Shown here piece after piece: positions 25,762 through 26,799 of a stretch of 64,000 bases of DNA (positions are counted from its first letter, which is position 1; every line of letters starts with the position of its first letter). This DNA comes from Escherichia coli. GTDB taxonomy: Bacteria > Pseudomonadota > Gammaproteobacteria > Enterobacterales > Enterobacteriaceae. The position numbers and the translations under genes are program-made. The notes under the pieces are model-generated. The model was not told where the DNA came from, made no database searches, and saw only the letters and a program-made list of their open reading frames with translations. Location of the stretch: assembly GCF_003790525.1 (NCBI RefSeq), contig NZ_CP033635.1; one strand, written 5' to 3'.

Positions 25762-25983
25762 ATGCTTATTACATTCACCGATTACGGCGCGGTAGCAAAA
25801 CTGGTTATCACCAGTTCCCGCCTGACATTGCGAAAACATAACCGCGTTGTTGATGCGGTGCTGTTTAATGTACAGGGGATCTCTGAAAACCGCAGCGGCT
25901 TTTTCTGGGTTAAGTCATCGTTGTCAGGAAAAACACGCGACATCCTGCGCGCCTACAAAATCGTACAGCGGGAGGCAAATTGA
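25762..25983 (+). CDS. Hypothetical phage protein
   Basis: 73 aa ORF. Confidence 0.25.
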   Translation: MLITFTDYGAVAKLVITSSRLTLRKHNRVVDAVLFNVQGISENRSGFFWVKSSLSGKTRDILRAYKIVQREAN

Positions 25984-26078
25984 TGAAGTCATTCCTCCTG
26001 TCCATGCTGTTTAGTCTGCTGCTGGTGCCCGTCGTTTTCGGTGCGCTGATTGAATATAAATTTTTAATGAATTACTGA
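25983..26078 (+). CDS. Possible 31-aa single-TM peptide (MKSFLLSMLFSLLLVPVVFGALIEYKFLMNY)
   Basis: ATG overlaps the stop of the upstream ORF (TGATG); strongly hydrophobic; below the ORF-track size cutoff. Confidence 0.25.
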   Translation: MKSFLLSMLFSLLLVPVVFGALIEYKFLMNY

Positions 26079-26086
26079 GGTGCGGG

Positions 26087-26716
26087 ATGGGCAAGATCAA
26101 AAACCCAGTTGTACTTATCCATAAGCGAGAAAATAGTGACTCCTACGTCGTTGCAATCACCTGCGGTAGCCAGAACTATCACGACGCCGTTCTGATGGCG
26201 TCGATGGAACTGGATATGAGTGACGATGATGTCGATACCTGGAGTAAAACCGGCTACTACATGGCTCAAGAAATCGAGCGACTTAAACAAGCGCTGTCCG
26301 CTGCGGAAAATAATTTGATTGATTCCGAATGCCTCGTCGCTGAATTAAGCAAAGCAAAGAATCACGCATATGGGCTGGTCGACACATACGACTGGCAACG
26401 TCAGCGTCTCCACGCAGCCACAGAGAAAGTCATCAAATGGTGCAGACAAGAAGCTGAACACCGTACCAGCGATCCAGAGAAATCAGAAAACTATGCGTGT
26501 GTTAAAGAACTACGCGACGCATTAACTTTTTGCAAAAGTTCTGAAGGCAGCAAGAAGAAAGGCCTGACCATCACCCTGCCCGATATCACATCAAAGGCAT
26601 TCTGGAGCGGTACCGGAAAAAACGCAAAATTCCATCCGGAAACCTATAAACGCTGGGTGAAAGAAGCTATCAAACGGGATTGTGTTATTGCCGGGATCGG
26701 CGTGCAGGTGAAATGA
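26087..26716 (+). CDS. Hypothetical phage protein
   Basis: 209 aa ORF; GGGATG upstream. Confidence 0.35.
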   Translation: MGKIKNPVVLIHKRENSDSYVVAITCGSQNYHDAVLMASMELDMSDDDVDTWSKTGYYMAQEIERLKQALSAAENNLIDSECLVAELSKAKNHAYGLVDTYDWQRQRLHAATEKVIKWCRQEAEHRTSDPEKSENYACVKELRDALTFCKSSEGSKKKGLTITLPDITSKAFWSGTGKNAKFHPETYKRWVKEAIKRDCVIAGIGVQVK

Positions 26717-26799
26717 TGAATAGGCCTGAAGCATTCACCGCAGTAGGAGTTGCAATAGCGGTGGCATTTATTCTGTATTCGCTTTTTCGCTGGGGATAA
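26713..26799 (+). CDS. Possible 28-aa single-TM peptide (MMNRPEAFTAVGVAIAVAFILYSLFRWG)
   Basis: ATGA overlap with the upstream stop; hydrophobic core; below ORF-track cutoff. Confidence 0.25.
   Translation: MMNRPEAFTAVGVAIAVAFILYSLFRWG

What the first reader, a model, noticed from the sequence alone, without database searches (positions are those of the whole stretch)
25983..26799. Two tiny hydrophobic single-TM peptides translationally coupled to upstream genes in the early-left operon
MKSFLLSMLFSLLLVPVVFGALIEYKFLMNY (25983..26078) and MMNRPEAFTAVGVAIAVAFILYSLFRWG (26713..26799) both start on ATG overlapping the preceding stop codon. Both are below usual annotation cutoffs. Small membrane peptides in this region of lambdoid phages are often host-killing, superinfection-exclusion or membrane-depolarising factors.
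Basis: seen in the sequence. Interest (0 to 1): 0.3.

Follow-up and report, generated by a model that had tools for sequence, protein, structure and literature searches.

The report
Two conserved unannotated prophage membrane micro-proteins
Two tiny open reading frames in the early-left operon of an E. coli prophage are real, conserved genes for single-helix membrane peptides that standard annotation misses; one family occurs in about 29% of complete E. coli genomes, including the Shiga-toxin phages, and neither has a known function.

Summary
P1 is 25983-26078 (31 aa). P2 is 26713-26799 (28 aa; the conserved start is the second ATG, 26716). Each start overlaps the stop of the gene before it.

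Neither is a chance ORF. P1 relatives are intact in all 97 loci held (49 distinct coding sequences, median dN/dS 0.17). They share an invariant GALIEYKF motif encoded by varying synonymous codons. P2 relatives are intact in all 92 loci examined at that stage (28 distinct coding sequences, dN/dS mostly 0.1-0.5).

Each peptide gene follows 4-5 unrelated upstream genes and precedes 7-8 unrelated downstream genes. In nearly every case its start still overlaps the upstream stop.

DNA similar to the P2 region is found in 1550 of 5426 complete E. coli genomes, up to 7 places per genome. It lies unannotated in 933W, VT1-Sakai and BP-4795.

No match reached significance in Pfam, PHROGs, NCBIfam, PADLOC, PDB or Rfam, and no paper names either sequence. 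A P1 relative is listed, without function, in a 2024 microprotein catalogue.

Both are strongly hydrophobic, and AlphaFold models each as one helix. The best reading is that they are translationally coupled, single-span inner-membrane micro-proteins made early after induction. Host killing and superinfection exclusion remain untested, and exclusion looks unlikely. Interest is modest.

The parts
25983..26078 (+). P1: 31-aa small ORF, MKSFLLSMLFSLLLVPVVFGALIEYKFLMNY. One hydrophobic helix (residues 5-23) followed by the invariant family motif GALIEYKF.
   Evidence: Family of 49 distinct coding sequences in 97 loci, median dN/dS 0.17, motif codons vary synonymously. Mean Kyte-Doolittle hydropathy 2.6. 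AlphaFold single helix, pLDDT 93.
25970..25975 (+). Shine-Dalgarno-like GGGAGG for P1, 7 nt before the ATG, inside the upstream gene.
   Evidence: A purine-rich motif is present in the P1 contexts printed. It is predicted to pair with P1 codons 4-6 (CCUCCU), but the fold z-score of -0.53 is not significant.
25762..25983 (+). Upstream 73-aa gene (PHROG 1001, unknown function). Its TGA stop (25981-25983) shares one base with the P1 start.
26087..26716 (+). 209-aa gene (PHROG 492, unknown function). It starts 8 nt after the P1 stop, and its TGA stop (26714-26716) overlaps the P2 start.
26713..26799 (+). P2: 28-aa small ORF, MMNRPEAFTAVGVAIAVAFILYSLFRWG (27 aa from the conserved ATG at 26716). Family core: M-x-[W/R/C]-P-[E/D]-A-F..V-G, then a hydrophobic helix, then a C-terminal R-W-G.
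   Evidence: Intact in 92 of 92 related loci, 28 distinct coding sequences, dN/dS mostly 0.1-0.5. 62 clusters in 1.84 billion representative proteins. Hydropathy 2.3. AlphaFold helix, pLDDT 90.
26706..26711 (+). Shine-Dalgarno-like AGGTGA for P2. It is GGAGGTGA in most relatives.
26804..27046 (+). DUF4222 gene, starting 4 nt after the P2 stop. This is the commonest downstream neighbour of P2.
   Evidence: PF13973, E 1.6e-17.
21351..22118 (+). cI-like repressor (HTH_3 plus Peptidase_S24), co-directional with the operon that holds P1 and P2.
22182..22211 (+). Best promoter-like site on the + strand (TTGACA-18-TAACAT). Candidate early-left promoter of the operon. Consensus match only.
27205..28810 (+). 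Excisionase (DUF1233) and tyrosine integrase at the end of the same operon, next to yecE.

Best explanation
P1 and P2 are two unrelated but real small protein genes. Each encodes one hydrophobic alpha-helix of about 19-21 residues.

Shown here:
- Both frames are kept intact and evolve under purifying selection at the amino-acid level.
- Both behave as portable mini-genes placed between unrelated neighbouring genes.
- A Shine-Dalgarno-like motif is present in the upstream contexts printed, and the start codon overlaps the upstream stop in nearly all contexts.

Inferred:
- They are transcribed as part of the repressor-controlled early-left operon (cI-like repressor to xis and int). They would therefore be made only after induction or infection.
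- They are translated by termination-reinitiation coupling with the upstream gene.
- They insert into the inner membrane as single-span micro-proteins.
- They act by helix-helix binding to a larger host or phage membrane protein. P2 would use its conserved small-residue face (G11, A15, S22 in 27-residue numbering). P1 would use its invariant interface motif GALIEYKF.
- They are accessory rather than essential, because their distribution among related phages is mosaic.

The target and the physiological effect are unknown.
For: Existence and coupling:
- Sequence and coordinates are confirmed.
- The start overlaps the upstream stop in 87 of 87 P2 loci that have an upstream ORF, and in 92 of 97 P1 loci.
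- Upstream genes fall into 4 (P2) and 5 (P1) unrelated clusters. Downstream genes fall into 7 and 8.
- SD-like motifs occur in the printed contexts.

Protein-level selection:
- P2 is intact in 92 of 92 loci, and the two other sense frames carry stops in all 28 distinct sequences. Pairs with dS above 1 give dN/dS of 0.08-0.34.
- P1 has median dN/dS 0.17 over 1001 pairs. G20, L22, E24, Y25 and K26 are invariant while their codons vary.

Breadth:
- DNA similar to the P2 region is found in 1550 of 5426 complete E. coli genomes, in 2840 places.
- The P2 profile finds 62 clusters at 50% identity.
- Two of three distant metagenomic members were called from starts that overlap the upstream stop, in packed operons of small genes.

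Membrane helix:
- Mean hydropathy is 2.3-2.8 over 19 residues.
- AlphaFold gives single helices, pLDDT 90 and 93.

Operon context:
- The repressor, xis and int are co-directional, the genes are tightly packed, and no promoter-like site lies near the peptides.
- No Rfam RNA family matches the region.
Against: - No direct evidence of translation. The peptide motifs were not found in the held supplementary tables of two EHEC ribosome-profiling papers. Those tables may not list them and were from uninduced cultures, so this absence is weak.
- dN/dS on 27 codons is noisy, the sequences are phylogenetically related, and a few pairs have values near 1.
- Membrane insertion, topology and any binding partner are inferred only from composition and conserved positions.
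- For a P1 relative, one predictor (Phobius) calls a signal peptide rather than a membrane anchor.
- The predicted hairpin that sequesters the P1 SD is not better than shuffled controls.
Confidence: 0.7

Rival explanations
1. Chance ORFs in short non-coding spacers between real genes. Any conservation would reflect DNA or RNA elements, not peptides.
For: Open frames of about 30 codons are common by chance. RefSeq leaves both regions unannotated. The reverse frame 1 of P2 is also open in all variants.
Against: The frames are intact in 92 of 92 and 97 of 97 loci. Variation is highest at third codon positions (P2 columns 16/11/23, P1 19/13/23). Invariant residues have synonymous codon variation. 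dN/dS is well below 1. The peptides are portable between unrelated flanks. No RNA family matches.
Confidence: 0.03
2. Relay ORFs: what matters is only that ribosomes translate them, passing ribosomes from the upstream to the downstream gene. The peptide sequence would be irrelevant.
For: Both ORFs exactly fill the gaps between genes. The next gene starts 4 nt (P2) or 8 nt (P1) after the stop. The last codons of both overlap the SD-like sequence of the next gene (GGGGA for DUF4222, GAGGTG for the 209-aa gene).
Against: There is amino-acid-level conservation with synonymous change. The same peptides occur before unrelated downstream genes. P2 also occurs with no closely following gene: the hok context has a gap of about 210 nt, and in ArgO145 the next genes are on the other strand.
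Confidence: 0.07
3. Host-killing or membrane-depolarising toxins. Like Hok, TisB or holin-type peptides, they would damage the inner membrane when expressed.
For: They are very short hydrophobic helices in a prophage. P2 lies about 210 nt upstream of a hok gene in 18 of 111 held occurrences, including 933W.
Against: No Hok/Gef Pfam hit, no Sok-type RNA, and no promoter-like site near either peptide. They are translationally coupled inside a long operon rather than tightly gated. Up to 7 matching places per genome are carried stably. In-frame fusions of P2 to an Ea22-like protein persist in several samples.
Confidence: 0.15
4. Superinfection-exclusion or defence factors that protect the lysogen from other phages.
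For: The predicted membrane location is typical of exclusion proteins. Prophage accessory genes often have this role (own knowledge).
Against: Exclusion needs expression in the lysogen, yet no promoter-like site lies near either peptide and both sit deep in the repressed early-left operon. No PADLOC model hit. Known exclusion proteins such as SieB are several times larger; lambda SieB is about 184 aa.
Confidence: 0.08
5. P1 is not a membrane anchor. It would be a Sec signal peptide whose cleavage after V-F-G releases the invariant C-terminal peptide of about 11 residues (ALIEYKFLMNY) to the periplasm or medium, for example as a signal.
For: Phobius calls a signal peptide for the Citrobacter relative in the Entero67K table. 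The invariant residues are concentrated in the C-terminal part. V at -3 and G at -1 fit the signal-peptidase rule (own knowledge).
Against: SignalP 6 calls no signal peptide for the same entry. The hydrophobic core is 19 residues, typical of anchors. There is no polar c-region. No recurrent receptor-like neighbour was seen.
Confidence: 0.08

Closest known systems
Bacterial small membrane proteins of under 50 aa that regulate larger membrane proteins (AcrZ, MgrB, MgtS, KdpF class; reviewed in PMC12648545)
   Same: Size of 27-31 aa. A single hydrophobic helix with short charged flanks. Conserved small-residue or interface positions that suggest helix-helix binding. Routinely missed by annotation.
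   Different: No sequence similarity to any curated family. P1 and P2 are phage-borne, sit inside a phage early operon, and are coupled to the upstream gene instead of having their own promoter. No partner is known.
Small early-left products of phage lambda (Kil, CIII, Orf28) and the exo-xis region ORFs
   Same: Same part of the genome (between the repressor and xis-int, or just beyond att). Same size class. Accessory, mosaic distribution. In several phages P2 follows Ea22-like or DUF551 genes of this region.
   Different: No homologue was found in lambda 27.0-36.5 kb or in the Rac prophage with family profiles. Lambda Orf28 is acidic, not hydrophobic. Kil and CIII are not membrane-spanning (own knowledge).
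Hok/Gef type I toxins of prophages (hokW of 933W)
   Same: Short single-helix membrane peptides carried by lambdoid prophages. P2 is the immediate upstream neighbour of hok in 933W and other prophages.
   Different: No PF01848 hit, no mok leader frame, no Sok antisense RNA, no C-terminal periplasmic domain. Half the length of Hok.
Entero67K predicted intergenic microprotein clusters (Fesenko et al., bioRxiv 2024, PMC11188072)
   Same: A P1 relative that differs at 4 of 31 residues (MKPFLLSMLFGLLLVAVVFGALIEYKFLMNY, Citrobacter_76875) is listed there as a cluster under purifying selection.
   Different: It is a catalogue entry only, with no function or phage context. The stored table is cut before Escherichia, so I could not tell whether P2 is listed.

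Membership tests
Genuine protein-coding small ORF (as opposed to a chance ORF) | Reading frame kept open in relatives that differ in DNA sequence | tested here: met
   P2 is intact in 92 of 92 loci (28 distinct coding sequences). P1 is intact in 97 of 97 (49 distinct coding sequences).
Genuine protein-coding small ORF (as opposed to a chance ORF) | Purifying selection on the amino-acid sequence (dN/dS below 1, synonymous variation at invariant residues) | tested here: met
   P1 median dN/dS is 0.17. P2 is mostly 0.1-0.5. The GALIEYKF codons vary synonymously. Caveat: the sequences are short and related.
Genuine protein-coding small ORF (as opposed to a chance ORF) | Direct evidence of translation (ribosome footprints, tagged product, mass spectrometry) | tested here: inconclusive
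   The motifs are absent from the held supplements of two EHEC Ribo-seq papers. Those tables are limited and came from uninduced cells. No raw data were accessible.
Translationally coupled gene pair | Start codon overlapping or abutting the upstream stop (ATGA or TGATG), with an SD inside the upstream gene | tested here: met
   Window junctions. Overlaps of 4 or 1 nt in 87 of 87 (P2) and 92 of 97 (P1) loci. SD-like motifs in the printed contexts.
Translationally coupled gene pair | Downstream translation depends on upstream translation | not testable with these tools
   Needs premature-stop mutants with reporter fusions. The predicted SD-sequestering hairpin for P1 is only suggestive.
Single-span small inner-membrane protein | One hydrophobic segment of at least 19 residues with hydropathy above the membrane threshold, predicted helical | tested here: met
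   Mean Kyte-Doolittle hydropathy 2.3-2.8 over 19 residues. AlphaFold helix 2-30 for P1 and 6-29 of the 30-residue query for P2.
Single-span small inner-membrane protein | Experimental membrane association and defined topology | not testable with these tools
   Needs fractionation and PhoA/GFP or cysteine-accessibility assays.
Hok/Gef type I toxin-antitoxin | Hok/Gef protein domain (PF01848) | tested here: not met
   No Pfam hit for either peptide, even at E up to 1.
Hok/Gef type I toxin-antitoxin | Antisense Sok RNA and mok leader frame | tested here: not met
   No Rfam family matched window 24000-29000 at E up to 1. No overlapping leader ORF was seen.
Known anti-phage defence or superinfection-exclusion protein | Match to a defence-system protein model | tested here: not met
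   PADLOC gave no family for the peptides or six neighbouring genes.
Known anti-phage defence or superinfection-exclusion protein | Expression in the lysogen from its own promoter | tested here: inconclusive
   No promoter-like site lies near the peptides. The consensus scan is crude, and read-through from the repressor gene cannot be excluded.
Sec signal peptide (P1 only) | n-h-c organisation with a signal-peptidase site, called by dedicated predictors | tested here: inconclusive
   For a relative in published Table S2 (PMC11188072), Phobius says signal peptide and SignalP 6 says none. No predictor was available here.

The most novel reading that the evidence does not exclude
P2 defines a widespread, essentially unannotated family of lambdoid-phage membrane micro-proteins, the 'WPEAF' peptides. 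DNA similar to the P2 region is found in about 29% of complete E. coli genomes, up to 7 places per genome, and the peptide is present in Stx phages 933W, VT1-Sakai and BP-4795 and on plasmids. Under this reading the family has a specific host or phage membrane target. It would then contribute to phenotypes of the early-left (exo-xis / b) region, such as the lysis-lysogeny balance, induction efficiency or host shut-down, that are currently credited to the annotated neighbours. P1 would be a second, rarer family of the same kind.
Probability: 0.4. Interest if true: 0.55.

Novelty: new member of a known kind. Interest (0 to 1): 0.35.

Why it matters
Small membrane proteins are a recognised blind spot of genome annotation. 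Here that blind spot lies in intensively studied, medically relevant phages. The P2 family sits unannotated in 933W, VT1-Sakai, BP-4795 and other Stx phages, and DNA similar to the P2 region is found in about three in ten complete E. coli genomes.

Genetic work on the exo-xis / early-left region uses deletions and cloned fragments. Some of these may carry or remove P2 unknowingly (I did not check any published construct), so effects could be credited to the wrong gene.

The two families give small-protein researchers concrete, conserved and easily testable candidates, 27-31 aa with clear motifs. They also give annotators a case for adding profile models. The finding does not overturn any concept.

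Tried and rejected
- Pfam, PHROGs, NCBIfam and PADLOC scans of both peptides gave nothing significant. The best were DUF883_C at E 0.049 and phrog_35838 at E 0.11, both below threshold.
- PDB sequence search with both family profiles gave nothing meaningful; the best was colicin A at E 0.44.
- Rfam on window 24000-29000 gave no match.
- tblastn of P1 against phages returned nothing, even for phi467, which carries it. The low-complexity filter is the probable cause, so I used DNA and pattern searches instead.
- The search for homologous proteins refuses queries under 40 aa.
- Family profiles against lambda 27.0-36.5 kb and the K-12 Rac prophage found no homologue. Lambda Orf28, YdaG, YdaF, YnaM and YdaE are unrelated.
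- Full-text search for peptide motifs found no relevant paper.
- Supplements of Hücker 2017 and Neuhaus 2016 contained no hit. Fremin 2022 is not held.
- I rejected the idea that P2 is the C-terminus of DUF551 proteins. The 121-aa 'DUF551' representative of its protein cluster does not contain the peptide, so that grouping is a clustering and naming artefact.
- I did not count the SD-sequestering hairpin as evidence for coupling, because its z-score is -0.53.

Full report
**Setting**

The window carries a lambdoid-type prophage.
- A cI-like repressor (HTH_3 plus Peptidase_S24) lies at 21351-22118 on the + strand.
- The best + strand promoter-like site follows at 22182-22211.
- After that comes an unbroken run of tightly packed + strand genes. 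It ends with an excisionase (27205-27441, DUF1233) and a tyrosine integrase (27497-28810).
- Next to the integrase is yecE (DUF72).

**The observation**

Both ORFs and their translations are exactly as reported.

P1:
- The ATG at 25983 shares one base with the TGA stop (25981-25983) of a 73-aa gene (PHROG 1001).
- P1 ends at 26078. The next gene (209 aa, PHROG 492) starts 8 nt later.
- GGGAGG lies 7 nt before the P1 start.

P2:
- The ATG at 26713 overlaps the TGA stop (26714-26716) of the 209-aa gene.
- A second in-frame ATG at 26716 is the start conserved in relatives.
- P2 ends at 26799, and a DUF4222 gene starts 4 nt later.

Without these two ORFs, the operon would have two unexplained non-coding gaps of about 100 and 85 nt among genes that otherwise overlap or nearly touch.

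**Is P2 real?**

A tblastn search found the peptide, complete and unannotated, in Stx phages and other lambdoid phages. The records inspected were phi467, JLK-2012, BP-4795, VT1-Sakai, 933W, ArgO145, Stx2a_WGPS2 and PhiR12_1.

A pattern scan of viral contigs added 80 loci. Across the 92 loci held at that stage:
- The frame is intact in all 92, with 28 distinct coding sequences.
- Variable columns by codon position number 16, 11 and 23.
- The other two sense frames carry stops in every variant.
- Pairwise dN/dS is mostly 0.1-0.5. For the most diverged pairs (dS above 1) it is 0.08-0.34.

The family core is M-x-[W/R/C]-P-[E/D]-A-F-x-x-V-G, then a hydrophobic stretch, then Y-S-[I/L]-[C/F]-R-W-G.

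The peptide gene follows at least four unrelated upstream gene ends: DUF551/Ea22-like proteins ending in PPQEV, the 209-aa family, 933W L0139, and a DUF4406-type protein. It precedes at least seven unrelated downstream contexts. Its start overlaps the upstream stop by 4 or 1 nt in all 87 loci where an upstream ORF is present.

A profile search of 1.84 billion representative proteins found 62 clusters at E of 0.001 or better. These include much more diverged members such as MNWPEAFRSVGIAFAIAFAVWALVRYL. I looked up three of them on their contigs. All sit in packed operons of small genes, and two were called from starts that overlap the upstream stop.

By blastn, DNA similar to the P2 region occurs in 1550 of 5426 complete E. 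coli genomes. That is 2840 places, up to 7 per genome, with 137 on plasmids. None of the records carrying P2 that I inspected annotates it as its own gene. A handful of GenBank 'hypothetical protein' entries do exist.

**Is P1 real?**

P1 is rarer: DNA similar to the region of the 73-aa gene and P1 is found in 30 of 5426 E. coli genomes by blastn, and only about half of those matches extend into P1 itself. Its gene is annotated in phi467, and a relative is annotated in LMessi.

A viral-contig scan gave 80 more loci. Across 97 loci:
- There are 49 distinct coding sequences and 42 distinct peptides.
- Median dN/dS is 0.17 over the 1001 pairs with dS above 0.3.
- The motif G-A-L-I-E-Y-K-F is invariant apart from two A-to-T variants, while the codons for G, L, E, Y and K vary synonymously.
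- Upstream genes fall into 5 unrelated clusters and downstream genes into 8.
- The start overlaps the upstream stop in 92 of 97 loci.

The window's copy has a proline at position 16 that no other variant has.

A relative from Citrobacter is listed in the Entero67K catalogue of predicted microproteins. There Phobius calls a signal peptide and SignalP 6 does not.

**What they are**

- Each peptide has one 19-residue stretch with mean Kyte-Doolittle hydropathy of 2.3-2.8.
- AlphaFold models each as a single helix, pLDDT 90 and 93.
- P1 has an N-terminal Met-Lys and a conserved E-Y-K at the end of the helix.
- P2 has a short acidic N-terminal flank (W-P-E-A-F) and a basic C-terminal R-W-G.
- No match reached significance in Pfam, PHROGs, NCBIfam, PADLOC, PDB or Rfam.
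- Family profiles find nothing in lambda's early-left region or in the Rac prophage.
- No paper in the library contains the motifs.

**Most likely mechanism**

Shown: these are conserved, portable, protein-coding mini-genes, with SD-like motifs in the contexts examined and start codons that overlap the preceding stop.

Inferred:
- They are transcribed from the repressor-controlled early-left promoter. No promoter-like site lies near them.
- They are translated by termination-reinitiation coupling.
- They insert into the inner membrane as single helices.
- They act by binding a larger membrane protein.

For P1, the SD is predicted to pair with codons 4-6 of P1 itself (CCUCCU). Leu5 is encoded by CTC in all 29 variants that have Leu there. 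This would fit a start site opened by ribosomes finishing the upstream gene. However, the fold is not better than shuffled sequence, so I treat it only as a lead.

**Function**

- The toxin reading has only composition and the recurrent neighbourhood of P2 and hok in its favour (18 of 111 held occurrences). It lacks every defining Hok/Sok feature.
- Classical superinfection exclusion is unlikely, because it requires expression in the lysogen.
- A pure ribosome-relay role is contradicted by amino-acid-level conservation and by contexts with no closely following gene.
- For P1, a cleaved secreted peptide is a minority possibility.
- In-frame fusions of an Ea22-like protein to P2 occur in two sequence variants and at least seven contigs. 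This shows that P2 can serve as a C-terminal membrane tail. It hints weakly at a functional link with its usual upstream neighbours.

**Verdict**

- These are new members of a known kind: unannotated small membrane proteins of phages.
- P2 is notable for its prevalence in E. coli and in Stx phages.
- Interest is modest until a target or phenotype is found.

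Noticed in passing
window 26719-26721 (P2 residue 4 of the 28-aa form); loci L002, L074-L090, L095: The residue after M-[T/N/S] in P2 switches among W (TGG), R (AGG or CGG) and C (TGC) in both sub-families. The change has therefore arisen several times. It alters the charge of the short N-terminal flank and could affect topology or reflect diversifying selection. The window copy has R.
   Followed up: partly
L181 156-776; L182-L185 3001-3432: An Ea22-like protein is fused in frame to P2 (…LPPLESNK-MSWPDAF…CRWG), giving a tail-anchored version. There are two sequence variants, at least seven contigs, and a DUF4222 gene still 4 nt downstream.
   Followed up: partly
L007 (933W), L187, L188, L189 and 14 viral contigs: P2 lies about 210 nt upstream of a hok/gef toxin gene in 18 of 111 held occurrences. 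The other common context is DUF4222 at +4 nt (79 of 111).
   Followed up: partly
L186 2511-2594 (plasmid pYLMB31b, 98 kb): P2 relatives also occur on plasmids (137 places in complete E. coli genomes). In this plasmid P2 sits after a DUF551 gene in a block of Ea22-like genes, which looks like a phage-plasmid.
   Followed up: partly
window 25968-25999: The P1 SD (GGGAGG) is predicted to pair with P1 codons 4-6 (UUC CUC CUG). Leu5 uses the codon CTC in 29 of 29 variants that have Leu there. This is a possible start-site hairpin opened by upstream translation, but it is not significant against shuffles.
   Followed up: partly
window 23158-23256 (+): Another 32-aa ORF (MKNRSAYKTALLMANAGYWSVAILFLRKAYGK) fills most of a gap in the same operon and ends 4 nt before the next gene (23260). 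It may be a third unannotated small gene.
   Followed up: no
window 27050-27196 (+): A 48-aa cysteine-containing ORF between DUF4222 and xis matches PHROG 3871 over its full length (E 3.5e-35). It is a conserved small phage protein of unknown function.
   Followed up: no
protein collection clusters of P0005, P0003 and P0016: The 27-aa P2 peptide is clustered with unrelated 121-aa DUF551 proteins. Partial P2 fragments at contig ends carry the name 'DUF551 domain-containing protein, partial'. This is a naming and clustering artefact that hides the family.
   Followed up: yes
window 28837-29562 (+): The yecE (DUF72) ORF next to the integrase matches the Pfam profile only from position 22. The prophage appears to sit at the 5' end of yecE, a known Stx-phage integration site (own knowledge).
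   Followed up: no
L002 2273-2431; L003 1809-2440: In the closest RefSeq genomes, the homologue of the 209-aa gene between P1 and P2 is annotated as a pseudogene fragment or split into pieces. That gene may be decaying in some lineages while P1 and P2 stay intact.
   Followed up: no
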